A stretch of 53,046 bases of DNA from NCBI GenBank assembly GCA_038057405.1, contig JBBUDH010000005.1, positions 1-53,046 of the forward strand, read 5' to 3'. The notes beneath the pieces were generated by a model. The model was not told the origin of the DNA. It did no database searches and worked only from the letters and a program-made list of their open reading frames with translations. The translations under genes and the position numbers were made by a program. The DNA is from Patescibacteria group bacterium. Lineage in GTDB: Bacteria; Patescibacteriota; Minisyncoccia; Phycocordibacterales; UBA2100. This document shows, piece after piece, positions 7,907 through 34,076 of this stretch (its first letter is position 1; each line of letters opens with the position of its first letter).

Positions 7907-10747
7907 TTACTCGAATTCAATGATGGTACTCGTTGATTTCTGTAATTCGGCGAGATGCTTTTCAAGCACCATTCGGCTCTCTGGTGATACTTTAAGCCGG
8001 TGTGTAGCGGATTCTCCCGGCTTCATGTTCTGCGATTTCCTGAACGCCTGTATTTCGCGGATGGTGTCCCGAACTAATCCTTCTTCCTGCAACTCTTGCG
8101 TGATGTTCGTATCGAGTGCGATCCCGTCACCCGTCCGCTCCACTTTTTTCACATTCACCTCATCGGCAACGATGGAAAGATATTCATCCGGTAGCTTCGA
8201 ACCGCGCGGAATCGAAAGCGAGGCGAGCGGCTGACGCACCTTAATCTTCGCTGCATCGCGCGCTTCGAGCGCTTTCGTCACAATCGCACGAGCCGTTTGC
8301 ATCGCGTCGAGGAGTTGTTTGTCTTTATTTGCCCCGCCGAAAAGTCGCGCAAGGAATCCCGTCCGCACAGAAACTTCGGGCCACATGGCCAGGTGCACAC
8401 TCTCTTCGTCTTCGCCCTCGCGCACCGACTGGAAAAGATGCTCCGCAAAGAACGGCATTGAAGGAGCCATGACGAGCGCGAGACGGTGAAGTACGTATCG
8501 CAAGGTAGCGAGAGCGTCATTCTTATCCTTTCCTTCCTCTTTGAAACGGTCACGGCTTCTCCGCAAATACCACACAGACAGGTCGTCGATAAATTTCGGA
8601 AGTGGTCGCGTCGCCGAATCAAGCTGATAATTTTCATATCCTTGAGTTGTCTCGATGACAAACTCATCGATTCGCGCGATTATCCAGCGGTCGAGAACAT
8701 TCTCACTCTTCCAATCACGCGCGGTTTCGTTTTCATACAATTTGTAGAAAGCGAGCACATTGCCGAGGCGGCCGATGTTTTTCTTCGCTACTTCATCAAC
8801 GCCGCTTTCTGAGAAGCTCAGATTTTCCGCCTGCATGACGGGCGAAGAAAGCAGGTAGAGCCGAAGCGCATCGGCCCCGTATTTCTCCACGATTTCCATC
8901 GGGTCGGGATAGTTCTGAAGTTTCTTCGACATTTTCTTGCCGTCTTCGGCGAGCACGATGCCGTTCACAATGACGTTTTGAAATGTATTCTTTCGGAAAA
9001 GCGCTCCGCCGAGCACGTGCAGGTAGTAGAACCATGCGCGCGTCTGGTCGAGACCTTCGGCAATGAATTGCGCGGGGAAGGTGGCGTCGAAACGTTCTTT
9101 ATTTTCAAACGGGTAGTGCTTCTCACCGTAGGGCATCGAGCCCGAATCGAACCACGTGTCGAGCACATCGGGAATACGGCTCATGGTTGAGCCACATTTG
9201 CAGGGCACCGTGACCCCATCGACGATGTGTTTGTGCAGGTCATCTATCTTCTTGCCGCTCGCTTCCTCAAGCTCTGCGGCGCTGCCGAATACTCTATCTT
9301 TCTTACATGCGGCGCATCGCCAGACAGGAATGACGCTCGCCCAGAAGCGCTGGCGGGATATGGACCAGTCGCGTGCTCCCTCGAGCCACTTGCCGAATCT
9401 TCCCTCTTTGATATGTTCCGGCGACCAGGTGACCGCCTCCGCATTCGTGAGCAAATTTTCTTTTATCTTCGTGACGGAGACAAACCACGATGATGTCGCG
9501 TAATTGAGAAGCGGCGTGTCGCAACGCCAACAATGCGGGTATGAGTGAGTGACATTCTCCTTGGAGAAAAATAATCCCTTTTCCTGCAAATATTTAAGAA
9601 CCGCGATATCGGTGCCGAGCCGCACCTTGTCTTCTTCCGAGCGTGGTTTCACCTCCATTCCCGCAAAATCTTTTACTTCGGGCTTCATCGTGCCGTCCAT
9701 ATTGACGTGCTGTACGAACGGAAGATTCTCCCTCTTGGAAAGCTCCCAGTCGTCCGCACCAAAAGCAGGCGCTTCGTGCGCGATACCCGTACCTGCATCG
9801 ATTGTAATGAAATCCGCCGCGTAGACTTTCCATCCGTTCTCGCGATTCTTGAGCGTCGTGTCGTTGGTGTAGTAATTGAACGGTGGTTTGTATTTTTTAC
9901 CAACGAGCTCGCTGCCTTTCATCTCTGCGATGACCTCCGCGCCCTGTAAATCCTTTGCATACCGCTCAAGTGCCGCCTTTGCGAGAATATAGGTGCCCGA
10001 CTTCGTCCGGACTTTCACATAGTCGATATCTCCTTTCACCGCGAGTGCGGTATTTCCGGGCAACGTCCACGGAGTCGTGGTCCAGGCGAGGAAGTACGTT
10101 CCCGACTCATCGACAAGCTCAAACTTCAGTGTGACTGAAATATCTTTTACATCCTTGTACCCTTCCGATACTTCCTGTTGGGAGAGCGTTGTCTCGCAGC
10201 GCGGGCAGATGTGCATCGAGCGATAGTCCTCGTACACCAACCCCTTGTCGTAGATTTGTTTGAAAACCCACCACACCGATTCCATGAACGGTTTGTCCAT
10301 CGTGCGGTACGCGTGCTCCATGTCTGCCCAGCGACCAATTCGCGGGATTATTTTCTCCCACTCCTCTGCGTAGGTGAGCACGCGCGCGCGGCACGTTTCG
10401 TTGAATTTATCGATGCCGTATCCGAGAATGTCTTTCTTGTGTTTGAAGCCGAGCTCCTTTTCGACGATATTCTCGATGGGTAATCCGTGGCAATCCCAAC
10501 CCCATACGCGCGGTACCGAGTAGCCGCGCATCGTCCAGAAGCGCGGCACCGCATCCTTGATAACGCTCGCGACAATATGGCCGTAGTGCGGAAGCCCCGT
10601 CGCGAAAGGAGGACCGTCGTAAAAAACGTACTCACCGTTCGGCGCGTCCCGCTCGACGGATTTCTTGAAAATATCCTCGTCTTTCCAGAATTTTAGCGTC
10701 GTTTCTTCCCGCAAAGCGGTATCTGATTTTTGCGGTTTTTCGGCCAT
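7907..10747 (-). CDS. ileS: isoleucyl-tRNA synthetase
   Basis: 946 aa with PPFATGLPHYGHI (HIGH), KMSKKLQN (KMSKS) and an editing-domain-sized insert. Confidence 0.97.
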   Translation of the reverse strand: MAEKPQKSDTALREETTLKFWKDEDIFKKSVERDAPNGEYVFYDGPPFATGLPHYGHIVASVIKDAVPRFWTMRGYSVPRVWGWDCHGLPIENIVEKELGFKHKKDILGYGIDKFNETCRARVLTYAEEWEKIIPRIGRWADMEHAYRTMDKPFMESVWWVFKQIYDKGLVYEDYRSMHICPRCETTLSQQEVSEGYKDVKDISVTLKFELVDESGTYFLAWTTTPWTLPGNTALAVKGDIDYVKVRTKSGTYILAKAALERYAKDLQGAEVIAEMKGSELVGKKYKPPFNYYTNDTTLKNRENGWKVYAADFITIDAGTGIAHEAPAFGADDWELSKRENLPFVQHVNMDGTMKPEVKDFAGMEVKPRSEEDKVRLGTDIAVLKYLQEKGLFFSKENVTHSYPHCWRCDTPLLNYATSSWFVSVTKIKENLLTNAEAVTWSPEHIKEGRFGKWLEGARDWSISRQRFWASVIPVWRCAACKKDRVFGSAAELEEASGKKIDDLHKHIVDGVTVPCKCGSTMSRIPDVLDTWFDSGSMPYGEKHYPFENKERFDATFPAQFIAEGLDQTRAWFYYLHVLGGALFRKNTFQNVIVNGIVLAEDGKKMSKKLQNYPDPMEIVEKYGADALRLYLLSSPVMQAENLSFSESGVDEVAKKNIGRLGNVLAFYKLYENETARDWKSENVLDRWIIARIDEFVIETTQGYENYQLDSATRPLPKFIDDLSVWYLRRSRDRFKEEGKDKNDALATLRYVLHRLALVMAPSMPFFAEHLFQSVREGEDEESVHLAMWPEVSVRTGFLARLFGGANKDKQLLDAMQTARAIVTKALEARDAAKIKVRQPLASLSIPRGSKLPDEYLSIVADEVNVKKVERTGDGIALDTNITQELQEEGLVRDTIREIQAFRKSQNMKPGESATHRLKVSPESRMVLEKHLAELQKSTSTIIEFE

Positions 10748-10771
10748 ATTATGCCTATCGTAACAGAAAAA

Positions 10772-12448
10772 TTACATTCGTTCAGGCGCGGGGATGCCAA
10801 GTATCCAAAGACCATTTTTGAGCGTGCGGCGCACCGCATCCACGAGCGCGACCTTATGGGCGGCCCCTGCAGTACCGTCAAGAATTTGCTCTTGCGCGTA
10901 CCAACTGTTGAAACGTGCCGCAACTTCCAAAAGATAGCTCGTGAGTAAATGCGGCTCATGAAGTGACGTCGCATATTCAACGATCTCAGGAAAGCGATGC
11001 AAAAAGCGCGGAAGCTCACCGGTCGTCGCATTCAGATCGGTTTTCGCAGCAATATTTTGTTCCTTCGCTTTCTCAATGATTGCATTGGTGCGCGCATACG
11101 CATATTGCAAATAGGGTCCGGAATCGCCTTCGAGCGAGAGAGCACGCTCGCGGTCAAAAATAATATCCTTGCCCGAAGCTTGTCTGAGTATCTGATACTT
11201 AATCGCCGCCACGGCAACTTGTTGTGCAAGCGCATCTTTATCGTCCGCTCTGCTCTCCGCAGCGCGCTCTTTTGCGGCCTCTGTAAGGTCGGCGAGCAAC
11301 GATTCCCCCGTTATCACATTTCCTGTGCGCGAAGACATCTTCCCTTCTGCAAAACGCATCATGCCGTGCGACACGTGCTCGATTTTCGCGGCAATGTCGG
11401 GCATGACCTTCCGCATTGCGGCAAGAACAACTTTGAAATAATCGCTCTGTTCATGCGCGGTCACTGTAATTGATACATCCACCGTGCATTTCTCCGCCTT
11501 GAGCTCTGCGAGCCCCAGCTCTTTGGTCTCATACGTCGGCAACCCCTTCGACGTGATGAACACGCGTGTGTGAAGACCATCTTTTTCACCCTTGTACACG
11601 ATCGCACCATCACTCTCCTCAAATACTTCCGGATGTTTCTTCACGAGCTCAACACCACGCGCGGCAGTCTCACTTTCGAAAAAATAGAAATCGAATTTCG
11701 TACCGAGTATTTTGTAAATCGATTCGAAATGCGCTAACGACGCTTCTCTGCCCTGGTCGTAGATGTTATTGATGACCGGGTCACTGCGATCGTATACCTG
11801 CGTATTGATTTTATCGATTTGCTCTTTTGCAGCCTCGTCACTCTCATATGCTGTTGCGCCTTGAGAATACGCGCGGCCCAGGGGCCAAACCTTTTTATCT
11901 CCCACATTAAGTCCGAACTTTTGCAATCCCCAAATCGCTTTCGCAACATGCGGTCCGACATCGCCCTGATAGTTGGCACGCTTCACATCCGCGCCTGAAA
12001 ATTGCATAAGCCGTGCGATTGATTCGCCGATTGCGTTGCTCATCAAATGTCCTATGTGAAATTCCTTGAATGGGTTCGGGTCGGTGTATTCCACCATTAT
12101 CTTTTTCCCGGCATTAAATGTGCCACTTCCCCACATATCTTCTTTGCGCGCGGTCTCGACTGCCTCGGCGAGTGCGCCAGGGGTGAGATAAAAATTGATG
12201 AAGCCCGCTCCCGCGACTTCGACTTTCGAAACGCCCTCAGGGCTACCAAACGCCGCAACTATTTTCTCCGCAAGCGCCCGCGGAGCTGTTCCCGCTTGTT
12301 TGGCATATTGCAATGCGACGCCGGAAGAATAATCGCCGTTGCGCAGCTCGGCCGGATGTTCGAGCGGAACTTTGTCTGGCTCAACAACAATGCCGAGTCC
12401 GCTGAGCGATTTTGCAATTGAATCTTTCAAGCTGCTCCTGATATCCAT
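10772..12448 (-). CDS. argS: arginyl-tRNA synthetase
   Basis: 558 aa with the EYTDPNPFKEFHIGHL (HIGH) motif, an N-terminal Arg-tRNA add-on domain and a DALR-like C-terminus. Confidence 0.95.
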   Translation of the reverse strand: MDIRSSLKDSIAKSLSGLGIVVEPDKVPLEHPAELRNGDYSSGVALQYAKQAGTAPRALAEKIVAAFGSPEGVSKVEVAGAGFINFYLTPGALAEAVETARKEDMWGSGTFNAGKKIMVEYTDPNPFKEFHIGHLMSNAIGESIARLMQFSGADVKRANYQGDVGPHVAKAIWGLQKFGLNVGDKKVWPLGRAYSQGATAYESDEAAKEQIDKINTQVYDRSDPVINNIYDQGREASLAHFESIYKILGTKFDFYFFESETAARGVELVKKHPEVFEESDGAIVYKGEKDGLHTRVFITSKGLPTYETKELGLAELKAEKCTVDVSITVTAHEQSDYFKVVLAAMRKVMPDIAAKIEHVSHGMMRFAEGKMSSRTGNVITGESLLADLTEAAKERAAESRADDKDALAQQVAVAAIKYQILRQASGKDIIFDRERALSLEGDSGPYLQYAYARTNAIIEKAKEQNIAAKTDLNATTGELPRFLHRFPEIVEYATSLHEPHLLTSYLLEVAARFNSWYAQEQILDGTAGAAHKVALVDAVRRTLKNGLWILGIPAPERM

Positions 12449-12478
12449 GTCGTTCTATTATAGCCGAGCGGAGAGAGC

Positions 12479-12505
12479 GAAGTGCGACCAGCATGGTCGC
12501 ACTTC
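12479..12505 (-). terminator. 11-bp GC-rich stem-loop between the TrmB-like gene 1 stop and the argS start; no clear U-tract
   Basis: GAAGTGCGACC-AGCAT-GGTCGCACTTC. No T-run follows on the minus strand, so its role as a terminator is uncertain. Confidence 0.35.
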
Positions 12506-12536: not shown

Positions 12537-13310
12537 TTATGCCTTAGCCGTGGGCTCAAGGCGATTCCACAATTCCTGCCATGCCACCCGCACCGCAGTT
12601 GCGATACCTTCGTCTTCAATAATGACCCCGAACGGATTTTCTTTGTCCCAGCGGAAAAATGCGACTTTGTTGCCGAAGACGTTGATTTCCGTTCCGAATT
12701 CTTCAGAATCTACGAAGCGCGTCTCGCGCATGAACGTGACATCGTTCTTCTCCGTCCACTCATGTGCGAATTTTGAGTCCCTATCAATGCACCGGGCGGC
12801 AATCTTCTTGGCAACACGTTGTGCCACATACCAATTGAGGAAACTCCACGGAAGCGTCCCCACCGCAGCGTCGAGATCTTCCCACGCGTAAATGATCTGT
12901 TTATCGCGCAACGTCACCCGGTAAATCTCTTTTAGCCCTTCAAGTCCCTGATAGAAAGAAACTTTCGGCTTGTTGCGCACATTATTCTGTATCGCGAGCA
13001 GCTGCGGTATGAGCCGCTCCATGGAAGCAACTTTTGATTTCTGTTCGTCTACCAAATGATGCGGACTGACTGCCGAATAGAGTTTGCGTTTTCCTTTCTT
13101 TATCTCCGAGAGCAGCTGTCGCTCCTTCAGAGTGTCGATGAAGTTGTAAATACTCGTACGCTTCACGCCGGATTTGCGCGAGATTTCCTGAATGTTCGCC
13201 TCGCCGAGCTCAAGTGCAGCGAGGTATACGGCGATTTCCTGCTCGGACAATCCGAGCGTTTGCATCAACTCCGCCTCGTTTTCGCTCAAAAATGACGTGG
13301 ATTTAGACAT
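12537..13310 (-). CDS. TrmB-like winged-helix transcriptional regulator, paralog 1
   Basis: N-terminal wHTH: LGLSEQEIAVYLAALELGEANIQEISRKSGVKRTSIYNFIDTLKERQLL. The C-terminal domain is shared with the genes at 15223-15993 and 32714-33469. Confidence 0.85.
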   Translation of the reverse strand: MSKSTSFLSENEAELMQTLGLSEQEIAVYLAALELGEANIQEISRKSGVKRTSIYNFIDTLKERQLLSEIKKGKRKLYSAVSPHHLVDEQKSKVASMERLIPQLLAIQNNVRNKPKVSFYQGLEGLKEIYRVTLRDKQIIYAWEDLDAAVGTLPWSFLNWYVAQRVAKKIAARCIDRDSKFAHEWTEKNDVTFMRETRFVDSEEFGTEINVFGNKVAFFRWDKENPFGVIIEDEGIATAVRVAWQELWNRLEPTAKA

Positions 13311-13336
13311 ATTTCTATATATCCGAATTGTGAAGC

Positions 13337-13366
13337 ATTATAAGCATAATATGTTCAGTCTGTCAA
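13337..13366 (-). promoter_or_regulatory. consensus sigma70-type promoter for TrmB-like gene 1
   Basis: On the minus strand, TTGACA (13366-13361), an 18-nt spacer, then TATAAT (13342-13337). The -10 box ends 26 nt upstream of the ATG. Confidence 0.6.
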
Positions 13367-13503
13367 CCAATTCTGTGCAATATGACGTATTTTCTAAACA
13401 TCTAGTCAAAATCAGGCAACATGTCCATAACTCTGGCAAGTTGATTGCCGAGTGATCGTTGACACCTGTGCCGCTCAGCAAGCGGCCAAACAAGGAGCGT
13501 TCC

Positions 13504-14265
13504 ATGAACGACTGTAAACGAATTGACGTACTGACGCAGGCGCAATGCGCGCTCCTGACCGCCAGCACTCCCCTCTTGCAAGGAATGAGTGAAGACGATC
13601 TTGAGCGGCGGATTATCCGTCACCCTGAATTGCAGAATAATCTCGCTGACGTGTTCCGAAGGCAATCGGGCTTCCCCGGGCTCCCAGGAACGGGGATAAA
13701 AATCCTTCGCGCGTTACAACTCGAGGAGGTTCCCGGTAAGAAAACTGCCGACTGCTTCACGAAAAAGTGGAGTGAAGATCGGAACCTAACTGCATTGGAG
13801 CAATATCTGCCGGAAGAGCAACGCGCTCAATCTGCCAGTTCCGTGCTCGTGTTCGAGCTCGGACCGAACAACAAATCCTCTACCATTCTGAGTGTTGCAA
13901 GTTGTGCTCTCCGTCTGGCATGGGATGTTCTCGAGTTCGGCTTTCCGTTGGAATCGGTTTCGAAGTTGCTCATCAGGCGCGGACACACGATGACCCTGCC
14001 GACACTGGAACACCTCGTCGAGCGACAGATGAGGGGTGAAGATGTCGGCTTCAAAAGGACCGGCAGCTGGGCGCCTGAAATCTGGTCGTTTGTCGAGAGC
14101 AAGAACGGCGATGTCGTGATTTGCAGACTCTACAGCGAACCGAACAGCCTCGGCAAAAAGTGGCAGATAAATATTCCGTTCGGTAGCGACTTCGAGTACT
14201 GGCGGAAGTACGACCTGTGCTATCCCGGACTGAAGTTCGTGATCCCGAATTGGACTCGCAATTAA
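13504..14265 (+). CDS. hypothetical protein (253 aa), cargo A of cassette 1
   Basis: AAGGAG lies 6 nt before the ATG at 13504. No recognisable domain. Confidence 0.65.
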   Translation: MNDCKRIDVLTQAQCALLTASTPLLQGMSEDDLERRIIRHPELQNNLADVFRRQSGFPGLPGTGIKILRALQLEEVPGKKTADCFTKKWSEDRNLTALEQYLPEEQRAQSASSVLVFELGPNNKSSTILSVASCALRLAWDVLEFGFPLESVSKLLIRRGHTMTLPTLEHLVERQMRGEDVGFKRTGSWAPEIWSFVESKNGDVVICRLYSEPNSLGKKWQINIPFGSDFEYWRKYDLCYPGLKFVIPNWTRN

Positions 14266-14278
14266 CGGAGGTTACACG

Positions 14279-14539
14279 ATGTCAAAGAACATCTGGAAGA
14301 TCTACTTCTTCGCATTGCTCATCGGAAGTTTCGGCGGGCAACTAACGAACGTAGGCATTGGCTACTACCTCAATCTGCCGCCGCAGCCAACTTACGAACA
14401 GCTGGTGCGTTGGCACGTGCGGGACCACTGCGGATTCCCCGCACACATTGACGCGTGGGCGACCTGCGCCGCCCGCGAAAGTGACAAGTTCCGCGAGCAG
14501 CAAATCCAGCTCGCGGTCGAAAACTGGCAAAACATCTGA
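14279..14539 (+). CDS. small membrane protein (86 aa), cargo B
   Basis: GGAGG lies 7 nt before the ATG. The N-terminal TM helix is IWKIYFFALLIGSFGGQL. Confidence 0.6.
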   Translation: MSKNIWKIYFFALLIGSFGGQLTNVGIGYYLNLPPQPTYEQLVRWHVRDHCGFPAHIDAWATCAARESDKFREQQIQLAVENWQNI

Positions 14540-14550
14540 AGGAGCGAAAC

Positions 14551-14832
14551 ATGCCGAAGTTCAACTTGGTCGTAGCTAACCCGGATGAGGACGTGGGTGA
14601 TGTTGCGACACGAGAATTCGACTGGCCCGCCCTGCCTCGTATCGGCGAAGAGATTAGCGTCTCTACGGTAGGTTCGGGATTACAGGGCGCAGAGGTACAA
14701 ATCTACCGAATAAAACACTGGTTCGAGAGCAGCGAAATCGAGATCTACTGCAAGATTACGGAGGGAAACGTCGAAGCGAACAGGTGGTCTTTCGAATACC
14801 TGATCACCGAAAACGGTTTCACCAGGCAGTAA
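14551..14832 (+). CDS. small hypothetical protein (93 aa), cargo C
   Basis: GAAGGAG lies 6 nt before the ATG. It is a distant paralog of the next gene. Confidence 0.6.
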   Translation: MPKFNLVVANPDEDVGDVATREFDWPALPRIGEEISVSTVGSGLQGAEVQIYRIKHWFESSEIEIYCKITEGNVEANRWSFEYLITENGFTRQ

Positions 14833-14847
14833 TCGGTCACGACGCGA

Positions 14848-14879
14848 AGCGGCGCGGAAAAGAACTTTTCCGCGCCGCT
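14848..14879 (+). terminator. perfect 15-bp stem-loop between cargo C and D (attenuator or terminator-like, no U-tract)
   Basis: AGCGGCGCGGAAAAG-AA-CTTTTCCGCGCCGCT. Confidence 0.45.
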
Positions 14880-14907
14880 AAAACTGCAACACTTCAGGAG
14901 AAGCGCC

Positions 14908-15162
14908 ATGATCACGTTCCACCTCGACATTAGTTACCACGACAGTTCACGGGACCAGATCACAAAGCAAGTGAGCTGGCCTGTAGTTCCGTCCAAAAAG
15001 CAACGCATCATGATCGGTGAATGCTTTCTGACGGTTGGCTGGGTCCTGCACGATCTCGACAGCAACGAGATCAGGGTCCACTGCAACCTTGGCCGAGCGA
15101 ACTCCAAAGAATTGTTCGAGCTGCTGCTGAAGCAGCACGGCTTTCGGGTCCGTGGCACTTAA
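14908..15162 (+). CDS. small hypothetical protein (84 aa), cargo D, paralog of cargo C
   Basis: AGGAG lies 7 nt before the ATG. It shares with cargo C the pattern F-L...WP..P...SxEI..xC...FE.L....GF. Confidence 0.6.
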   Translation: MITFHLDISYHDSSRDQITKQVSWPVVPSKKQRIMIGECFLTVGWVLHDLDSNEIRVHCNLGRANSKELFELLLKQHGFRVRGT

Positions 15163-15187
15163 GTACGTGCCGGTCGAATCTAACTCA

Positions 15188-15225
15188 AACGGCGCGGGAA
15201 ACATACCTCCCGCGCCGTTTTTTTA
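15188..15225. terminator. rho-independent terminator between convergent cargo D and TrmB-like gene 2
   Basis: AACGGCGCGGGA-AACATACC-TCCCGCGCCGTT followed by TTTTTTATTT. Confidence 0.75.
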
Positions 15226-15993
15226 TTTCGCAATCGGGGCGAGCTGGTCCCACTGTTCTTGCCAGATTATTTTGAGTGTGCGGGCGAGACCGGGGTCTTC
15301 GATGAGGACGCCGAAGGGAGAATCTTTGCGCAAACTGAAGAGCGCGACTTTATTGCCGAATATTTCGATGTCTGTCCCGAACTCCTCCGCCGCAAGCAGC
15401 CGCGACTCGCGTGAGTAGCCGATATTTTTCTCAGTAATGAATTTCCGTGCGAATGGCGTGTCGCGAGTGATGGTACGAAGCGGGATTTTCTTTGCGGAAC
15501 GCTCTTCAGGATAATTCTTAGTAAACGACTGCGGCATGATGTCGAACATGCGATCGAGGTCTTCCCACGCGTAAATCGTCTGCTTGTCATGCAGCATGAC
15601 GTTGTACATCTCTTCCATGCCCGCTATCCCCTCGTGATACGTTACTTTCGGTTTTTTCTGTCCGCTGTTGTCTATCGCGAGCAGTTGCGGAATGAGTTTC
15701 TCCACTGCCGCGATGCGCGCACGCTCTAATTGCAAAAGTTGCGAGGGATGCGCCGCCGCATACACGTGCCGCTTCCCTTTTTTGGTCTCGGAGACAAGTT
15801 GGCGTTCTTTAAGAGCCGCAAGGTGGTTGTAGGTGCTCGCGCGGGTCACACACGATTTGCGCGAAATATCTTGAATATGCGCCTGCCCGAGCTCTAGTAG
15901 CGCGAGGTAGACGGCAAGCTCGCCCTCACTCAATCCGAGGCTACGAAGCAATTCCGCGTCCTTTTCTTCCAGAAATGACACATTTATTGTCAT
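15223..15993 (-). CDS. TrmB-like winged-helix transcriptional regulator, paralog 2
   Basis: LGLSEGELAVYLALLELGQAHIQDISRKSCVTRASTYNHLAALKERQLV. It aligns along its full length with paralog 1 (IYAWEDLD, EEFGT.I..FGNKVA.F, PFGV.IED). The start is set at the ATG at 15993 (MTINVSFLEE). Confidence 0.85.
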   Translation of the reverse strand: MTINVSFLEEKDAELLRSLGLSEGELAVYLALLELGQAHIQDISRKSCVTRASTYNHLAALKERQLVSETKKGKRHVYAAAHPSQLLQLERARIAAVEKLIPQLLAIDNSGQKKPKVTYHEGIAGMEEMYNVMLHDKQTIYAWEDLDRMFDIMPQSFTKNYPEERSAKKIPLRTITRDTPFARKFITEKNIGYSRESRLLAAEEFGTDIEIFGNKVALFSLRKDSPFGVLIEDPGLARTLKIIWQEQWDQLAPIAK

Positions 15994-16018
15994 ATTTCCC
16001 TTTGCCACGATATGATTG

Positions 16019-16048
16019 ATTATAAGCATATTTATTGCATATAGTCAA
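16019..16048 (-). promoter_or_regulatory. near-consensus sigma70-type promoter for TrmB-like gene 2
   Basis: On the minus strand, TTGACT (16048-16043), an 18-nt spacer, then TATAAT (16024-16019). The geometry matches the paralog 1 promoter. Confidence 0.6.
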
Positions 16049-16157
16049 CTAGTACGACTCAAAACAACACTATTTCTAAACAATAGAGACAAATTGAGCA
16101 ACAATCCCCTCGAGTCCGGCAAGTCCCCTTGCCTGACCTGCACATTGGGAGTTGAAC

Positions 16158-16346
16158 ATGGCTACTCAGAATGCGTTGAAGAAGCCCGACGTACGTGATG
16201 CGCCCACGCCTGAAGACATTGGGCAACTCTTCTTGCGAAATAAGGGCATATCGCAGTTCGTCGTCTCGTCACCGGGAGATATCTTGGTCGAATGCAAGCT
16301 GAACGACCAGCAGGCCATTGAGCGCAAAGTCGCCGACGAGCGCTGA
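16158..16346 (+). CDS. small hypothetical protein (62 aa), cargo E of cassette 2
   Basis: GGGAG lies 6 nt before the ATG at 16158. No recognisable domain. Confidence 0.5.
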   Translation: MATQNALKKPDVRDAPTPEDIGQLFLRNKGISQFVVSSPGDILVECKLNDQQAIERKVADER

Positions 16347-16370
16347 ACGGGCAATCCGCCCGGTCACCTT

Positions 16371-16399
16371 GGCAGGAACGACTGCCAGTCGTTCCTGCC
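16371..16399 (+). terminator. 13-bp stem-loop after cargo E (attenuator or terminator-like)
   Basis: GGCAGGAACGACT-GCC-AGTCGTTCCTGCC followed by CTTGATTG. Confidence 0.4.
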
Positions 16400-16474
16400 C
16401 TTGATTGAGTTCGCGAACATCCGTTCGTTGGCTCTGAGAGATCTTGATCGTTGACATATCAAAGGAGCATGAAA

Positions 16475-17482
16475 ATGGAAAAGTTTGACCTTGATGCAGC
16501 TATCAAAGACTGCGAGCTGCACGAATGGACACCGGAGGCGATCGAGGCGTACAAACGAGCCGCAGTGGCCAAGGCGCCTCCACCAAGCACCGCATGGGAA
16601 CATCGAAAGGCTATCGTCGTCTGCGCTCGAATCGCTGTCACCGTCGGACTGATGGCCGTCTGTGCAATCATCATCGGTTTCGTCTATTCGGCATGGTTTG
16701 TGGTGCTGGTAAGTATCACAGCCTTCGTTGGAATGGGTGTCGGGACTCATTTTCTCGACAAAGCGATGAAAAGTACCGTAAAGCCCGCAATTTGGGAAAC
16801 GGAACACTTCAACTTCCACGGCGACATACCAACGGGGGCGAACATCCTCTTGCGACGGATGCGCGATTCCGGTGATTCCGATACGAATGCTGAGGTCTTT
16901 GTGCTGAGGCAGTATCGAGCATCCGGCCGTTCAGAGTGGCTCGGCTCGATTTTCTGCTTCGGAGGGCGGTATCTTGCGGTGTCCGATGAAAAACGCAACA
17001 TCGTTCTGCCGCCCGGAATTGAGCCTGACGATGAGTCGAAACACACTCTTGTCGTGGACGGCTCGATGAAACTTCACGACATGATCCGAGCGGCACGAAT
17101 GCGGCGCGATGATACCGAAATCAATGCGAAACGATTTCCGGTTGACCCGTCGCTGGCAGGTCGTTGGCTATGGAAGATATATCCATGGCAAGAGGAGATG
17201 GAATCGCCGGAAGCGGTGGCCGCAATCATGGCGAAAAACGGTTTCGTGCTGGCCCGCCATGAGCACGGCCTTGCCTTCGAGGCTCAGTTCCCGATGCGGC
17301 ACCCGAGTTGGCTATTAATCTGCGCGGGATGGCAGTCTAAGCACTCGTGGCACAACTTCGAGGAAGTGCTTTGCTTCTCGACAATGTACGGTCGGGTGAC
17401 GATGGAGCTAATAGATGATATCGGCTGGTACCGAATGGAAGACCGAGGAAATTACTTCCTCGGTGTCCGCCGGGCTACCTAA
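16475..17482 (+). CDS. membrane protein (335 aa), cargo F of cassette 2, function unknown
   Basis: AAGGAG lies 7 nt before the ATG at 16475. Two adjacent TM helices (IVVCARIAVTVGLMAVCAIIIGF and WFVVLVSITAFVGMGVG) precede a Trp/His-rich soluble domain of about 230 aa. Confidence 0.7.
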   Translation: MEKFDLDAAIKDCELHEWTPEAIEAYKRAAVAKAPPPSTAWEHRKAIVVCARIAVTVGLMAVCAIIIGFVYSAWFVVLVSITAFVGMGVGTHFLDKAMKSTVKPAIWETEHFNFHGDIPTGANILLRRMRDSGDSDTNAEVFVLRQYRASGRSEWLGSIFCFGGRYLAVSDEKRNIVLPPGIEPDDESKHTLVVDGSMKLHDMIRAARMRRDDTEINAKRFPVDPSLAGRWLWKIYPWQEEMESPEAVAAIMAKNGFVLARHEHGLAFEAQFPMRHPSWLLICAGWQSKHSWHNFEEVLCFSTMYGRVTMELIDDIGWYRMEDRGNYFLGVRRAT

Positions 17483-17493
17483 TGGCTTAACGC

Positions 17494-17537
17494 AAAGCGG
17501 CGCGGGATTCTATCCCGCGCCGCTTATTCTTTTCCTT
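17494..17537. terminator. rho-independent terminator between cargo F and convergent rplK
   Basis: AAAGCGGCGCGGGA-TTCTA-TCCCGCGCCGCTT followed by ATTCTTTTCCTTTATT. Confidence 0.75.
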
Positions 17538-17547
17538 TATTCTGGAA

Positions 17548-17970
17548 TTAAATGTCCGAGTCGATGCCCATGCTTCTCGCGGTGCCGGCTATGGTCTTCT
17601 TCGCCTGCTCCATGTCGTTGGCATTCATGTCCTCCATCTTCTCTTTGACGATATCCTCAAGCTGCTGATTCGTGAGTCGGCCTACCTTGTTCTGCGCCTT
17701 ATCAGAGCCCTTTTCCATACCCATCGCCTTGAGAATAAGGCGGGAGGCCGGCGGCTTCTTGACGATAAAGGTGAACGTGCGGTCCTTGTAGACGGTGAGC
17801 AGTACCGGGACGATAGAGCCCGCCATCGGACGCGTGAGGGTGTTGAACTGGTTGACGAACTCGCCGATGTTCACGCCTGCAGGCCCGAGCGCGGTACCGA
17901 CCGGAGGCGCGGGTGTCGCGGCGCCTGCAGCTATCTGCAATTTGATTATTTTTGTGATTTCTTTTGCCAT
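17548..17970 (-). CDS. rplK: 50S ribosomal protein L11
   Basis: [43 protein letters not shown]. Confidence 0.97.
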
Positions 17971-32309: not shown

Positions 32310-32717
32310 TCATATGAGTTTGGATGTTTTATATGTTTCCGGCCGGAATGCCTGCAACCTCACCACCTTCGCCTTCACACCCGCATCCGTCAAGTCGCGC
32401 TCAAGCCGGTCGACGAATTCCCCCGATTGATCATATCCGAGCGCGATGATATCAGGCTTCGCATCCGCGATGTGTTCGATGTATCCGTCCTCCTGTCCGA
32501 GAATGACTTCGTCGACGAGCGTATTGCGCGAGAGAAGCGCATGTCGCTCCTTTTCAGACCGTCGCGGCTTGGCGCCTTTGATGCGTGTGACTACATGCTC
32601 CCGCGCGACGGAAACGATAAGGTAGGGGTCGGGAGCAAGAGCGCGGGCTTGGCGGAAAAAATCCACATGGCCCTCATGGACCATATCGAAAGTGCCGAAG
32701 ACCATGATGCGCGTCAT
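32310..32717 (-). CDS. cytidylyl/adenylyltransferase-fold protein (RibL/FMN-adenylyltransferase-like or TagD-like)
   Basis: [17 protein letters not shown] carries the (T/H)xGH nucleotidyltransferase motif. 135 aa. The start overlaps the stop of the upstream TrmB-like gene. Confidence 0.7.
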
Positions 32718-33469
32718 GCCGTCTTTGTACTCCCTCCGATGAGTTCCCACAACAGGTCGAACTTTTGTTTCTCCGCCTCCGCAATACTCTCGCTTTCGAT
32801 AACGACCGTCATCATCTCCTCCGCGCCCGAGACGATAATAATTTTGTTGTCATAAATAAGGCTACTTCCTTCGAACTCAAACTGCTGCGGCATGAAACGC
32901 ATCTCGCGAAATTCTTTTCCGTGCTCGCGCTCGGTAATATTTTTCTTCGTGTCCTGCGAATAGAGACACTTGATGGAGATGCGTTGCTTCACGCGGGTGG
33001 GAATGTAGTAATCAAGGTCATATTTTTCTCCGAGCATTTTATGTGTGTCTGTAAGCGAACCAATGTGCCGCAAAAGATTCCCCGGCTTCTTGAGTGAATC
33101 TTCTATCGCAAGGCGATATCCCTCTTGTCCTTCGAAGTAAGACAGCTTCGGCCGGGCGCCTTTTTTTGTTTCAAGCGCTTTCAGTTGCGGCAACGCGGCG
33201 GCTAGGTCGGCTAATTCTTTTTTACGCAGAGAATACAAAATCTCGGGGCTCATTGCGGCGAAGTGCATACCACCGCGCATTTTGAACGAACCCATGATGC
33301 CTCGCTTCTCAAGCCCCTTGAATATCTGATAAGCGGTCGAGCGTTTGATTCCCGCCTGCTTAGCGAGTTTCGTCATCGGCGCATCCCCCAAGTTTAAAGC
33401 GGCCATATAGAGCCCCGCCTCCTTGAGATTGAGACCTATCGTCTCCAAGATTTCCGTAATATTTTGCAT
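32714..33469 (-). CDS. TrmB-like winged-helix transcriptional regulator, paralog 3
   Basis: [47 protein letters not shown]. Its length and C-terminal layout match paralogs 1 and 2, but it is more diverged. Confidence 0.8.
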
Positions 33470-33602
33470 ATTGTCGTCTTTTCGGACAACATTAGACTAC
33501 CATAATGCACCTAAATATCAACACATTCCAGGACTTCGGATAATTACTGTCGTATTTTATAGCCCAGCTCCCCTTTTCGTTGCACAGTATCCCCCACGTT
33601 GG

Positions 33603-33618
33603 ACCGGCATCCGCCGGT
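33603..33618. promoter_or_regulatory. perfect palindrome ACCGGC-N4-GCCGGT in the leader of cassette 3 cargo (candidate operator or leader hairpin)
   Basis: It lies 28 nt upstream of the cargo ATG at 33647. An analogous palindrome, GGCAAG-N4-CTTGCC (16118-16133), lies 24 nt upstream of the cassette 2 cargo ATG. Confidence 0.3.
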
Positions 33619-33646
33619 TCACGCGAACATTCACAGGAGAAGAACG

Positions 33647-34057
33647 ATGCTAAACAGTATCGGCACGTATATCATCGCGACGTTTCCAGTTACGAGCGCC
33701 TTCGTTTCTACGCTGCTTCCAGGCGTCATCTTGATGTTCACGACCGTGTGGGAAGGCCGTCGCACTGACCACTGGGGTGTTGGCGTCGTCGGAACGATTG
33801 GTTTTGGGGCCACGTTCGCAGCATTTATCATTGGCGACCTCTTTAAGAATGACGTACTTGGTATCACGTTGCACGAATCTGCGATAACGAGTGTCATTGG
33901 GGTAGTACTTGGAGCCTGGGTTGGGCTATACATCGAATTGAAAGAGGCCGGCCAACGGAAAATCCAACGCCTGCGGACCAATGGTGTTGAGATGGATCCA
34001 TCGGTCTACAACACATATCGTCTCTGCCGCTTACCCGGCGAATGCAAGTGTCGATAA
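33647..34057 (+). CDS. polytopic small membrane protein (136 aa), cargo G of cassette 3
   Basis: AGGAG lies 7 nt before the ATG. Four hydrophobic helices and a Cys-rich tail (CRLPGECKCR). Confidence 0.6.
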   Translation: MLNSIGTYIIATFPVTSAFVSTLLPGVILMFTTVWEGRRTDHWGVGVVGTIGFGATFAAFIIGDLFKNDVLGITLHESAITSVIGVVLGAWVGLYIELKEAGQRKIQRLRTNGVEMDPSVYNTYRLCRLPGECKCR

Positions 34058-34076
34058 CCCTACAAAGGAGGTTTAC

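What the first reader, a model, noticed from the sequence alone, without database searches (positions are those of the whole stretch)
12537..17540. Two tandem 'TrmB-like regulator + divergent orphan cargo' cassettes between argS and rplK
Two paralogous TrmB-like wHTH regulator genes (12537-13310 and 15223-15993) are each transcribed divergently from a short plus-strand operon with no recognisable family. By my by-eye alignment roughly half their residues are identical; this was not computed. Cassette 1 carries a 253-aa protein, an 86-aa TM protein and two paralogous proteins of about 90 aa. Cassette 2 carries a 62-aa protein and a 335-aa two-TM protein. The regulator, promoter and terminator look duplicated, while the cargo differs completely. 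Every cargo gene has a strong Shine-Dalgarno site, whereas the flanking housekeeping genes I inspected mostly lack one. A conserved regulator scaffold with variable cargo, placed inside a conserved ribosomal/aaRS neighbourhood, is the layout seen in variable accessory loci. It is the best candidate in this window for an undescribed functional module.
Basis: partly seen in the sequence, partly recalled or inferred. Interest (0 to 1): 0.75.

Follow-up and report, generated by a model that had tools for sequence, protein, structure and literature searches.

The report
Paired TrmB-like regulators with swappable cargo
Two old duplicate copies of a regulator family specific to ultra-small Patescibacteria each face a short operon of unknown, strain-variable genes between rplK and argS, a real and recurring layout whose function is still unknown.

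Summary
REG1 (12537-13310) and REG2 (15223-15993) are 52% identical over 256 residues without gaps. About 135-150 nt of their upstream control DNA is also homologous. All six cargo genes have Shine-Dalgarno sites and match no Pfam, NCBIfam, PHROG, PADLOC or PDB sequence family.

The regulators have the architecture of archaeal TrmBL2: a TrmB winged helix, a long helix and one degenerate PLD-fold domain. They lack TrmB's sugar-binding subdomain. They belong to a Patescibacteria-wide family (203 database hits; 116 genes in 80 loci). In that family 79% of members have a divergent upstream neighbour, at a median distance of 158 nt.

In close relatives the rplK-argS interval always holds one or two such regulators, but the cargo changes, and the order of the two regulator types can be swapped. 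Two contig pairs carry 99.7-100% identical regulator and control DNA next to unrelated cargo. The break lies at a GC-rich palindrome.

The cargo is not random. The C1a-d and C2b gene sets recur in some relatives, with dN/dS of 0.25-0.48.

Most likely these are local one-component regulators that gate strain-variable accessory operons at a replacement hotspot. Regulation of the cargo is inferred, not shown. It is a new variant of a known kind, of moderate interest.

The parts
12537..13310 (-). REG1, a 257-aa regulator with TrmBL2-like architecture: wHTH at aa 16-83, long helix at 84-108, PLD-fold C-terminal domain at 111-257.
   Evidence: Pfam PF01978 at 56 bits. AF2 model pLDDT 88.5. Foldseek: TrmBL2 5bqt E 7e-14, TrmB 3qph E 2e-9, Nuc 1byr E 5e-6 for the C-domain. 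Positional orthologs of 67-97% identity lie next to argS.
12479..12505 (.). Hairpin with an 11-bp stem (GAAGTGCGACC-agcat-GGTCGCACTTC) between the REG1 stop and argS. argS has its own TATAAT 11 nt before its ATG.
   Evidence: Read from the sequence and the upstream listing. In relatives the regulator-argS gap is only 7-10 nt.
13311..13453 (.). Conserved control region of cassette 1. On the minus strand: -10 TATAAT at 13337-13342 and -35 TTGACA at 13361-13366. Also the box TGTTTAGAAA at 13391-13400 (- strand) with TTGCCT 17 nt upstream of it, and the palindrome ACTCTGGCAA-gttga-TTGCCGAGT at 13430-13453.
   Evidence: Promoter scan, 12/12 match. Alignments of 2 and 14 upstream regions. The motifs occur only at the two cassettes in the 53-kb window.
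13504..14265 (+). C1a, a 253-aa soluble protein of a fast-diverging family. It has invariant Cys84, His161 and Asp180.
   Evidence: Only self plus one 86%-identical hit among 5.8 billion proteins. Homologs of 24-26% identity in L002, L090 and L089. Alignment A6. No PDB or Pfam match.
14279..14539 (+). C1b, an 86-aa protein with an N-terminal membrane anchor and two Cys in its tail.
   Evidence: Homologs: L090 62%, L002 52%, L089 30%. dN/dS 0.35 against L090. Strong SD GGAGG.
14551..14832 (+). C1c, a 93-aa small soluble protein and paralog of C1d.
   Evidence: L090 homolog 77%, L089 37%, L002 38%. Family alignment A5. dN/dS 0.48.
14847..14879 (.). Perfect 15-bp hairpin (AGCGGCGCGGAAAAG/CTTTTCCGCGCCGCT) between C1c and C1d.
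14908..15162 (+). C1d, an 84-aa paralog of C1c.
   Evidence: L090 homolog 68%. Cross-hits to the C1c-type genes at E 2e-5 to 3e-11. dN/dS 0.40.
15187..15220 (.). Bidirectional intrinsic-terminator hairpin shared by the convergent genes C1d and REG2.
   Evidence: 13 pairs, then a T run. The stem is related to those of the other two hairpins.
15223..15993 (-). REG2, a 256-aa paralog of REG1.
   Evidence: 52% identical to REG1. Orthologs of 76-81% identity in L088, L089, L090 and L094. dN/dS 0.14.
15994..16137 (.). Conserved control region of cassette 2. On the minus strand: -10 TATAAT at 16019-16024 and -35 TTGACT at 16043-16048. Also the box TGTTTAGAAA at 16073-16082 (- strand) and the palindrome GTCCGGCAAG-tccc-CTTGCCTGAC at 16114-16137.
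   Evidence: The palindrome matches 9/10; 6 of 500 shuffles reach this. Homology to L090 ends 147 nt upstream of the ATG.
16158..16346 (+). C2a, a 62-aa small protein.
   Evidence: 43% identical to the 71-aa first cargo gene of L091, E 1e-10. SD GGGAG.
16371..16399 (.). Perfect 14-bp hairpin between C2a and C2b, with no T run.
16475..17482 (+). C2b, 335 aa. It has a conserved N-terminal motif, a two-helix membrane hairpin, a middle domain (aa ~103-196) and a C-terminal domain of about 140 aa from an uncurated family.
   Evidence: Exhaustive HMMER gave 24 hits in three separable regions. The L088 homolog is 32% identical at E 8e-50 and lacks the membrane hairpin. The C-domain AF2 model has pLDDT 86.5 and pTM 0.85. 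No significant PDB or viral fold match; the best is a weak C-type-lectin-like one.
17495..17525 (.). Bidirectional terminator shared by the convergent genes C2b and rplK.
   Evidence: 14 pairs. 82% identical to the tail of the 15187-15220 terminator (D1).
32714..33469 (-). REG3, a third and more distant paralog (251 aa) with the same layout. Divergent membrane-protein ORFs with no family lie at 33599-34057 and 33981-34529. A GC palindrome lies about 150 nt upstream of its ATG.
   Evidence: tblastn: 28% identity to REG1 over 257 aa, E 7e-29. Pfam TrmB for REG3; no family for the neighbours. Palindrome.

Best explanation
REG1 and REG2 are old tandem paralogs of a Patescibacteria-specific branch of the TrmB family. 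Their architecture is that of TrmBL2: winged helix, dimerisation helix and a single degenerate PLD-fold domain, with no sugar-binding subdomain.

Each gene carries about 120-150 bp of conserved control DNA. This holds the regulator's own sigma-70-like promoter(s) and ends at a GC-rich palindrome, where the divergent cargo transcription unit begins.

I infer the following. The regulator binds in this region, most likely at the palindrome and/or the TGTTTAGAAA box. It autoregulates and gates the divergent, leadered, SD-dependent cargo operon in response to a signal that does not depend on which cargo is present.

The stretch between rplK and the regulator's control region, and the stretch between the two regulators, behave as a replacement hotspot. 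Whole cargo sets, and even whole cassettes, are exchanged, duplicated or reordered between related strains by recombination in the conserved flanks.

The cargo consists of lineage-restricted, fast-evolving but real proteins. These include a possible Cys-His-Asp enzyme, small membrane-anchored proteins, small soluble paralogs, and a membrane-tethered protein with a new cytoplasmic domain. I take them to be conditionally expressed accessory functions.

Shown: paralogy, fold, conserved control DNA, recurrence, variability, and selection on the cargo. Inferred: DNA binding at these sites, control of the cargo, and the nature of the signal.
For: **Paralogy and fold**
- 52% identity over the full length.
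- A profile of the family aligns to P. furiosus TrmB residues 11-133, with the DNA-recognition Tyr (Tyr50 per PMC4158304) opposite the invariant Y55.
- AF2 model pLDDT 88.5. Best full-length Foldseek hits are TrmBL2 (E 7e-14) and TrmB (E 2e-9). The C-domain alone matches PLD-fold nucleases.

**Family behaviour**
- 203 database hits, named only from Patescibacteria lineages.
- 116 genes in 80 loci, often 2-4 per locus.
- The upstream neighbour is divergent in 77 of 97 cases, against a rough 34% baseline, at a median 158 nt.
- Partners include LivK-type binding proteins (19), B12/radical-SAM enzymes, cupins, and 38 unique genes.

**Control DNA**
- It is conserved among 14 regulators that are 50-97% identical.
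- Its motifs occur in the window only at the two cassettes.
- The REG2-type palindrome matches 9/10 at position -144.

**Hotspot: what lies between rplK and argS**
- One regulator plus a methyltransferase (L082, L099-102).
- One regulator plus other cargo (L002, L083, L004).
- Two regulators with other cargo (L089, L090).
- Two regulators in the reverse order (L093-97).

**Recent replacement**
- L090 and L091 are 99.7% identical over the regulator plus 148 nt, then unrelated.
- L094 and L098 are 100% identical over the regulator plus 117 nt, then unrelated.
- The break lies at the palindrome.

**Whole-cassette duplication**
- The L094 cargo proteins of 240 and 242 aa are 57% identical, and the two L094 regulators are 60% identical.

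**Cargo genes are real**
- Protein-level homologs exist.
- dN/dS is 0.25-0.48, against 0.02-0.14 for the regulators.
- They have SD sites and terminators.
Against: - There is no expression, binding or transcription-start data, so control of the cargo rests on position alone.
- I could not identify a convincing, conserved cargo-direction promoter. The best candidate is -35 TGACnn, 17-18 nt, -10 cAAAAT, overlapping the regulator-direction box. It is weak in the REG2-type regions.
- The enriched family-wide motif TGTCTAAAAT looks like an extended -10 rather than an operator. It is oriented forward in 20 cases and reverse in 2.
- Identical regulators next to unrelated cargo could equally mean that the regulator is indifferent to the cargo.
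- In most relatives the argS-adjacent regulator is only 7-10 nt from argS, which suggests an operon with the tRNA synthetase genes.
- The best structural relative, TrmBL2, is a sequence-unspecific chromatin protein (PMC4158304).
- The two replacement examples involve short metagenomic contigs (2.1-5.7 kb).
Confidence: 0.6

Rival explanations
1. The regulators do not control the divergent cargo. They autoregulate and drive or modulate the downstream housekeeping operon (argS-ileS-recO), or they act as global, TrmBL2-like DNA-organising proteins. The cargo merely accumulates at a permissive recombination hotspot beside a strongly conserved promoter region.
For: - The regulator-argS gap is 7-10 nt in L089, L094 and L099-102.
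- Whichever regulator type sits next to argS keeps this arrangement.
- IleRS or other class-I synthetases also lie near more distant family members.
- Identical regulators tolerate unrelated cargo.
- The best fold match is the chromatin protein TrmBL2.
Against: - REG2 in the window, and the rplK-proximal copy in every two-cassette locus, is followed by a terminator and a convergent gene, not by a synthetase. Its control region is nevertheless equally conserved.
- Family-wide, 79% of members have a divergent partner at about 158 nt. This includes repeated binding-protein/regulator pairs, which is typical of local regulators.
- In the window, argS has its own -10 box and is separated from REG1 by a hairpin.
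Confidence: 0.2
2. The cassettes are conflict modules, such as toxin/immunity or anti-phage systems, under a repressor. C1a would be a Cys-His-Asp toxin or effector and the small paralogs C1c/C1d its immunity-like partners. Diversifying selection would explain the rapid turnover.
For: - C1a alleles are only 24-26% identical between genomes whose neighbouring genes are 62-97% identical.
- Cys, His and Asp are invariant in C1a.
- The small genes are duplicated.
- A PemK toxin module is inserted at the same locus in L090.
- The cargo is strain-variable.
Against: - No cargo protein hits PADLOC, Pfam, PHROGs or PDB sequences.
- dN/dS values of 0.35-0.48 indicate relaxed purifying selection, not positive selection.
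- The triad is read from a five-sequence alignment without a structure.
- Other cargo at the same position is an ordinary SAM methyltransferase.
Confidence: 0.1
3. The palindrome at the cargo boundary is a site-specific recombination site, and the locus is an integron-like cassette-exchange system.
For: - Homology breaks fall at or next to the palindrome in three comparisons.
- The palindrome is kept, with compensating changes, in different lineages.
Against: - No integrase, transposase or other recombinase lies in or beside any of the loci.
- No second copy of the site is seen at the other end of the cargo.
- Breaks at the edge of conserved DNA are what ordinary homologous recombination produces.
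Confidence: 0.04
4. The cargo ORFs are not genes, and the interval is non-coding spacer.
For: They have no family matches. One of them (C1d) is out-competed by an antisense ORF in a naive ORF call.
Against: - Protein-level conservation in other genomes.
- dN/dS below 0.5.
- SD sites at the right distance for all six genes.
- A confident fold for the C2b C-domain.
Confidence: 0.01

Closest known systems
TrmBL2 (Thermococcus kodakarensis TK0471 / Pyrococcus furiosus PF0496; PDB 5bqt, 5bpd)
   Same: Similar length (about 260 aa) and the same three-part architecture: TrmB-type winged helix, long helix and one alpha/beta C-terminal domain. It also lacks the C-terminal subdomain of about 70 aa that binds sugars in TrmB. 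It is the best full-length fold match, E 7e-14 (PMC4158304).
   Different: - TrmBL2 is archaeal, usually single-copy, abundant and binds DNA without sequence preference as a chromatin protein.
- The proteins here are bacterial and multi-copy (three in 53 kb). Each is tied to a divergent neighbour and a conserved upstream region.
- Sequence identity is only about 17%, and the global TM-score is 0.41.
TrmB / TrmBL1 sugar-sensing regulators of Thermococcales (PDB 3qph)
   Same: The PF01978 DNA-binding domain, the conserved recognition Tyr, the dimerisation helix and the first effector-domain subdomain. Like TrmB with the trehalose/maltose ABC transporter genes (my own knowledge), many family members sit next to ABC-transporter binding-protein genes.
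   Different: - There is no second (beta-barrel) subdomain, which carries six of the seven sugar-contacting residues.
- Pfam shows no PF11495 match at E up to 1.
- NCBIfam TrmB equivalog scores are 42 and 33 bits against a cut-off of 600.
- The source annotation 'sugar-specific regulator' is therefore not supported.
Divergently transcribed local regulator/target pairs with overlapping promoters (for example TetR-tetA and LysR-type regulators; from my own knowledge)
   Same: The regulator and its target are transcribed back-to-back from a shared region of about 150-190 bp that contains a palindrome. The regulator promoter is conserved.
   Different: - The protein family is different.
- The target side is replaceable while the regulator side stays fixed.
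- No operator has been demonstrated.
Replacement-type flexible genomic islands, such as O-antigen or capsule loci flanked by conserved genes (from my own knowledge)
   Same: The flanks are conserved (rplK on one side, regulator and argS on the other). Between closely related strains the content is unrelated, and the homology breaks are sharp.
   Different: - The locus is much smaller (1-3 kb per cassette).
- The cargo is not glycosylation machinery.
- A dedicated regulator and its control DNA form one flank.

Membership tests
TrmB family (Pfam PF01978 DNA-binding domain) | The N-terminal winged helix matches PF01978 above the gathering score. | tested here: met
   REG1 56.4 bits, REG2 51.6 bits and REG3 34.2 bits, against a cut-off of 25.6.
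TrmB family | A conserved DNA-recognition tyrosine in the recognition helix (Tyr50 of P. furiosus TrmB; PMC4158304). | tested here: met
   In the HMM alignment to 3qph, TrmB 'RVYD' lies opposite the family's 'SIYN'. Y55 is invariant in 23 sequences.
TrmB family | A long helix after the winged helix that links to, and dimerises with, the effector domain. | tested here: met
   The model has a helix at 84-108. The profile alignment to TrmB runs through residue 133.
Sugar-sensing TrmB/TrmBL1 (orthologs) | An effector-binding domain matching Pfam PF11495, and the NCBIfam equivalog score. | tested here: not met
   PF11495 is not listed at E up to 1. NF040851 scores 42 and 33 bits against a cut-off of 600.
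Sugar-sensing TrmB/TrmBL1 | A second C-terminal beta-barrel subdomain that carries the sugar-contacting residues (Asn305 to Glu326). | tested here: not met
   The protein ends at residue 257, after a single alpha/beta domain. The residue list is from PMC4158304.
TrmBL2-like architecture | About 260 aa: winged helix, helix and a single C-terminal domain. | tested here: met
   Foldseek to 5bqt_A: E 6.7e-14 over 270 columns. The global TM-score is only 0.41, so the relative domain orientation is not reproduced.
TrmBL2-like function (chromatin protein) | Abundant, sequence-unspecific DNA coating. | not testable with these tools
   This needs expression and binding data.
Phospholipase D superfamily (catalytic) | An HxK(x)4D active-site motif. 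| tested here: not met
   The C-domain matches Nuc, NucT and Zucchini folds. No His is invariant in the C-terminal domain of 23 or of 15 aligned sequences.
Known anti-phage defence or toxin-antitoxin systems | At least one component matches a PADLOC or Pfam model. | tested here: not met
   No cargo protein hits. The regulators hit only through the generic winged helix (CasR, Csa3, AbiEi; E 2e-7 or weaker).
Integron-like cassette systems | An adjacent tyrosine-recombinase integrase and attC-type sites at both cassette ends. | tested here: not met
   No recombinase is seen in the gene and Pfam listings of the window locus or of 15 related loci. The palindrome is present at one end only.
C-type lectin-like fold (C2b C-terminal domain) | A significant structural match with the beta-alpha-alpha-beta-beta-beta-beta topology. 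| tested here: inconclusive
   The best PDB hits are EMS16 and rhodocetin, at E 0.18-0.35, probability 0.63-0.69 and TM 0.45-0.53. The order of secondary-structure elements is compatible. No sequence hit.

The most novel reading that the evidence does not exclude
The conserved 'regulator plus about 140 bp of control DNA ending in a palindrome' is a portable expression platform. In these very small genomes, unrelated accessory operons are swapped in behind it and so inherit the same signal-dependent control. That would make it a recombinase-free functional analogue of an integron. The cargo would supply new biochemistry for the episymbiotic lifestyle, namely a new Cys-His-Asp enzyme family and a new cytoplasmic domain with only a weak lectin-like resemblance.
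Probability: 0.15. Interest if true: 0.75.

Novelty: new variant of a known kind. Interest (0 to 1): 0.45.

Why it matters
From my own knowledge, Patescibacteria have tiny genomes, few recognisable transcription factors and almost no experimentally studied regulation.

This work shows one TrmB-derived family present in several copies per genome, three of them within this 53-kb window. Each copy is wired to a divergent neighbour. That gives a concrete entry point into how these organisms regulate genes. It also corrects a misleading automatic annotation ('sugar-specific regulator').

The rplK-argS locus shows how strain-specific genes are exchanged next to a fixed regulatory module. It also supplies a short list of recurrent unknown protein families whose expression is probably conditional: the C1a type, the C1c/d type and the C2b C-domain. 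These are good targets for structural and host-interaction studies.

I found no paper in the held library that mentions TrmB together with Patescibacteria or the candidate phyla radiation.

Tried and rejected
- **Direct C1c/C1d comparison.** BLASTP gave nothing. Paralogy only appeared through intermediate homologs.
- **Family libraries for the cargo.** Pfam, NCBIfam, PHROGs and PADLOC gave no hit on any window cargo protein. Pfam also gave no hit on ten cargo proteins from relatives, nor on 21 members of the C2b family.
- **PDB sequence-profile searches.** The C1a, C1c/d and C2b C-domain families gave nothing meaningful.
- **Word-indexed search with the mixed C2b alignment.** The alignment mixed three separable regions and was a poor query.
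- **C1a search.** It found only itself and one close relative.
- **Foldseek of the C2b C-domain.** No hit against viral structures.
- **Metagenome-contig scan with a regulator alignment.** It failed with a tool error yet consumed the cap. I replaced the population survey with exact-protein look-ups.
- **Operator reading of the family-wide k-mer.** TGTCTAAAAT is almost always in the forward orientation and has the form TG-N2-TAAAAT. It is better read as an extended -10 box.
- **L089 150-aa first cargo gene.** It is not a C1a homolog by hhalign.
- **Link to branched-chain amino acids.** LivK-type partners and Ile/Leu/Val-type synthetases nearby suggested one. By my rough estimate the synthetase association is not above chance once close relatives are collapsed, so I dropped it.
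- **Structure-prediction jobs.** Both were used, on REG1 and on the C2b C-domain, so C1a could not be modelled.

Full report
**1. What is in the window**

The genes in and around the finding run as follows:

| Coordinates | Strand | Gene |
|---|---|---|
| 7907-10747 | - | ileS |
| 10772-12448 | - | argS |
| 12537-13310 | - | REG1 |
| 13504-14265 | + | C1a |
| 14279-14539 | + | C1b |
| 14551-14832 | + | C1c |
| 14908-15162 | + | C1d |
| 15223-15993 | - | REG2 |
| 16158-16346 | + | C2a |
| 16475-17482 | + | C2b |
| 17548-17970 | - | rplK, followed by nusG and secE |

The same sequence is on record in a Patescibacteria metagenome-assembled genome, GCA_964358775.1. GC content across the interval (50-54%) is close to that of the rest of the window.

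**2. Check of the observation**

- REG1 and REG2 are 52% identical over 256 residues without a gap, E 2e-103. Both carry the Pfam TrmB domain.
- The two regulator-to-cargo intergenic regions are homologous for about 135 nt counted from the regulator ATG. Beyond that they diverge.
- Each has a near-consensus minus-strand promoter: TTGACA-18-TATAAT in cassette 1 and TTGACT-18-TATAAT in cassette 2.
- Three hairpins share nearly the same GC stem: 14847-14879, 15187-15220 and 17495-17525. The strict form of that stem occurs nowhere else in the 53 kb.
- All six cargo genes have Shine-Dalgarno sites, at -6.8 to -10.2 kcal/mol. Only 8 of 41 other long ORFs reach -6.
- C1c and C1d show no direct BLASTP similarity. 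They are linked through homologs in three other genomes and share 11 invariant positions.
- No cargo protein matches Pfam, NCBIfam, PHROGs or PADLOC.

**3. The regulators**

A profile of 23 family members aligns to P. furiosus TrmB (3qph) from residue 11 to 133. This covers the winged helix, the long helix and the first strand of the effector domain. TrmB's DNA-recognition Tyr50 lies opposite the family's invariant Tyr55 (residue role from PMC4158304).

The AlphaFold model of REG1 is confident, with pLDDT 88.5. Its best full-length structural matches are TrmBL2 (5bqt, E 7e-14) and TrmB (3qph, E 2e-9). The C-terminal domain on its own matches phospholipase-D-fold nucleases such as Nuc (E 5e-6). 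No histidine is invariant in that domain, so the HKD catalytic motif is absent.

The protein stops where TrmBL2 stops. It therefore lacks the beta-barrel subdomain that holds six of TrmB's seven sugar contacts (PMC4158304). The TrmB effector-domain Pfam model and the NCBIfam TrmB equivalogs are not matched.

The regulators are thus members of the TrmB family by their DNA-binding domain, with TrmBL2-type architecture. They are not sugar-sensing TrmB orthologs.

**4. The family and its habit**

- The word-indexed search found 203 relatives. Nearly all are full-length at about 250 aa. Where a source names the organism, it is a Patescibacteria lineage (Kaiserbacteria, Uhrbacteria, Buchananbacteria).
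- A scan of one genome per species returned 80 loci.
- A simple ORF call and clustering found 116 family genes in those loci, often two to four per locus.
- The upstream neighbour is divergent in 77 of 97 cases. The rough baseline in the same loci is 34% of genes. The median spacing is 158 nt, with an interquartile range of 120-202. The window's spacings of 193 and 164 nt fit this.
- The divergent partners are LivK-type periplasmic binding proteins (19), B12-binding radical-SAM enzymes (6), cupins (3) and a few other small groups. In 38 cases the partner has no homolog elsewhere in the set. The binding-protein genes are followed by permease and ATPase genes.
- The window itself holds a third, distant paralog, REG3 (32714-33469, 28% identity). 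It faces two membrane-protein ORFs with no family.

**5. Close relatives: a fixed frame with changing content**

Regulators that are 67-97% identical to REG1, or 76-81% identical to REG2, are found in the same frame as here: secE-nusG-rplK on one side and argS-ileS-recO on the other.

| Loci | Content between rplK and argS |
|---|---|
| L082, L099-L102 | One regulator plus a SAM methyltransferase |
| L083 | One regulator plus proteins of 214 and 114 aa with no family |
| L002 | One regulator plus homologs of C1a, C1b and a single C1c/d |
| L004 | One regulator with other genes on both sides |
| L089 | Two regulators in the window's order. The cassette-2 cargo is a 272-aa C1a homolog; the cassette-1 cargo is 150, 78 and 85 aa |
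| L090 | Two regulators. Cassette 1 is close to the window's: C1b 62%, C1c 77%, C1d 68%, but C1a only 24%. Cassette 2 differs |
| L093-L097 | Two regulators in the reverse order, with the REG2 type next to argS. The first cargo genes of the two cassettes are 57% identical to each other |

L088 pairs a REG2 ortholog (81% identity) with a C2b homolog (32% identity, E 8e-50).

The cassette layout therefore recurs and the interval is variable. Cassettes behave as units that can be duplicated, reordered and refilled.

**6. Recent replacement**

- L090 and L091 encode the identical regulator protein. They are 99.7% identical in DNA over the gene plus 148 nt upstream. Beyond that point the cargo is unrelated: 68, 218 and 187 aa in L090 against 71, 122 and 60 aa in L091. 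Both contigs reach the 3' end of rplK on the far side.
- L094 and L098 are 100% identical over the regulator plus 117 nt, then unrelated.
- Reading the junctions shows that the breaks lie at a GC-rich palindrome.
- L091's version of the palindrome and the adjacent 5' leader match the window's IG2. L091's first cargo gene is 43% identical to C2a. The palindrome therefore travels with the cargo side.

**7. The control region**

I aligned 14 upstream regions from regulators that are 50-97% identical. In the regulator's direction the conserved elements are:

1. The palindrome. The REG2 type is GTCnGGCAAG-N4-CTTGCCnGAC, matching 9/10 at -144, which 4-6 of 500 shuffles reach. The REG1 type has shorter arms.
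2. TTGCC(T), then 17 nt, then TGTTTAGAAA.
3. A GTCA box.
4. The -35 TTGAC.
5. The -10 TGCTTATAAT.
6. AAATATG.

In the window, the palindrome core and the exact TGTTTAGAAA box occur only at the two cassettes.

The family-wide enriched word TGTCTAAAAT is oriented forward in 20 cases and reverse in 2. It has the same TG-N2-TAnAAn form as the -10 box. I therefore read TTGCC-N17-TGTTTAGAAA as a second, upstream regulator-direction promoter. This is an inference.

On the other strand the same segment reads -35 TGACnn, 17-18 nt, -10 cAAAAT. That would be a cargo-direction promoter overlapping it face to face. It is good in L084 and fair in the REG1-type regions, but weak in the REG2-type regions.

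On this reading the palindrome falls near the 5' end of the cargo transcript. It could be an operator or a 5' stem-loop. Two sequences keep the stem through G-U-compatible changes, and L004 has a different stem at the same place. The data cannot separate the two possibilities.

**8. The cargo**

- **Selection.** The genes are real. dN/dS between the window and L090 is 0.35 (C1b), 0.48 (C1c) and 0.40 (C1d). For C2b against L088 it is 0.25. The regulators give 0.02 and 0.14.
- **C1a.** It has only one close relative among 5.8 billion proteins. Three very divergent allele classes exist (window type, L002/L090 type and L089 type). They share 18 invariant positions, including Cys84, His161 and Asp180. 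This suggests a catalytic triad but is untested.
- **C2b.** It is modular. It has a conserved N-terminal motif, a two-helix membrane hairpin that is missing in the L088 homolog (so I infer that the domains are cytoplasmic), a middle segment and a C-terminal domain.
  - The middle segment recurs as many matched stretches in two proteins of 1393 and 3846 aa.
  - The C-terminal domain of about 140 aa occurs on its own in proteins of about 145-220 aa. One of these lies between housekeeping genes in an unrelated contig, L092.
  - The C-terminal domain has no Pfam model and no PDB sequence relative. Its confident model (pLDDT 86.5, pTM 0.85) has no significant structural match. The best are weak C-type-lectin-like hits, and there is nothing in viral structures.

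**9. Explanation and rivals**

The best-supported reading has four parts:

- A Patescibacteria-specific branch of the TrmB family acts as local regulators.
- Each regulator has its own conserved control DNA.
- Each gates a divergent accessory operon.
- The locus is a replacement hotspot.

The main rival is that the regulators serve their own gene and the downstream synthetase genes, or act globally like TrmBL2, and that the cargo merely collects there. In its favour are the 7-10 nt regulator-argS gaps in relatives and the indifference of identical regulators to their cargo. Against it stand two points. The rplK-proximal copy has an equally conserved control region but is followed by a terminator. 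And the divergent-partner habit runs through the whole family.

The conflict-module and integron-like readings have little support. There are no defence-library hits, no recombinase, and no sign of positive selection.

**10. Novelty and score**

Local regulators divergent from their targets, the TrmB family, and replacement islands are all known. The new points are:

- a bacterial, multi-copy TrmBL2-architecture branch;
- its conserved bidirectional control module with a sharp cargo boundary;
- several recurrent protein families of unknown function, one of which folds confidently into a domain with no significant structural match.

The held literature has no paper that mentions TrmB together with Patescibacteria or the candidate phyla radiation.

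I rate this a new variant of a known kind, with interest 0.45. The layout is real and useful to specialists, but no mechanism is demonstrated and nothing is categorically new.

Noticed in passing
window 32714-34529: A third cassette of the same layout. REG3 (251 aa, 28% identical to REG1, Pfam TrmB) faces two overlapping plus-strand ORFs for small membrane proteins with no family. A CCGGC-ggat-GCCGG palindrome lies about 150 nt upstream of the REG3 ATG.
   Followed up: partly
window, e.g. 12449-12470 (argS), 10748-10770 (ileS), and many others listed: Most housekeeping genes lack a Shine-Dalgarno site. Instead they have a TAnAAT-type -10 box ending about 4-12 nt before the start codon (GGCTATAATAGAACGAC-ATG for argS). 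This suggests leaderless or near-leaderless mRNAs as the default in this genome. The cargo genes are the exception.
   Followed up: partly
window 17482-17548 and the whole window: rplK is not followed by rplA. From my own knowledge this fits the reported lack of ribosomal protein L1 in a subgroup of Parcubacteria.
   Followed up: partly
L090:1-867: A PemK-family toxin gene (485-817) sits just after the 3' end of rplK. A 52-nt segment of the rplK 3' end is present twice (within L090:1-89 and at 816-867). It looks like an inserted toxin-antitoxin module with a duplicated target at the same hotspot.
   Followed up: no
window 14847-14879, 15187-15220, 17495-17525: Three hairpins with almost the same GC stem ((A/G)CGGCGCGG...CCGCGCCG(C/T)) lie within 2.7 kb. 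The strict pattern matches only 14849-14878 and 17497-17523 in the 53 kb. This fits duplication of whole cassettes together with their terminators.
   Followed up: partly
window 16371-16399: A perfect 14-bp hairpin with a 1-nt loop lies between C2a and C2b and is not followed by a T run. Its role is unknown; it could be an attenuator, a processing site or a terminator.
   Followed up: no
L057, L062, L034, L036, L055 (Wolfebacteria and Magasanikbacteria loci): These loci carry tandem arrays of 'LivK-type binding protein < | regulator >' pairs, up to four per locus. They sit next to a single set of two permease and two ATPase genes. It looks as if each binding-protein paralog has its own regulator paralog.
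   Followed up: partly
L093-L097 (e.g. L094:601-5521): The order of the two regulator types is reversed relative to the window, with the REG1 type next to rplK and the REG2 type next to argS. The first cargo genes of the two cassettes are paralogs at 57% identity.
   Followed up: yes
C2b residues ~132-196 (window ~16868-17062); proteins P0126, P0143: The middle segment of C2b matches 13 stretches of a 1393-aa protein and 5 stretches of a 3846-aa protein. It is therefore a repeat unit of giant proteins elsewhere.
   Followed up: no
record titles of L009, L011, L018, L022, L025 and others: Many contigs carrying this regulator family are labelled in their records as 'uncultured Gammaproteobacteria', 'Bdellovibrionales' or 'Deltaproteobacteria'. 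Every lineage name that sources attach to the family's proteins is Patescibacteria. These labels may be binning or taxonomy errors.
   Followed up: no
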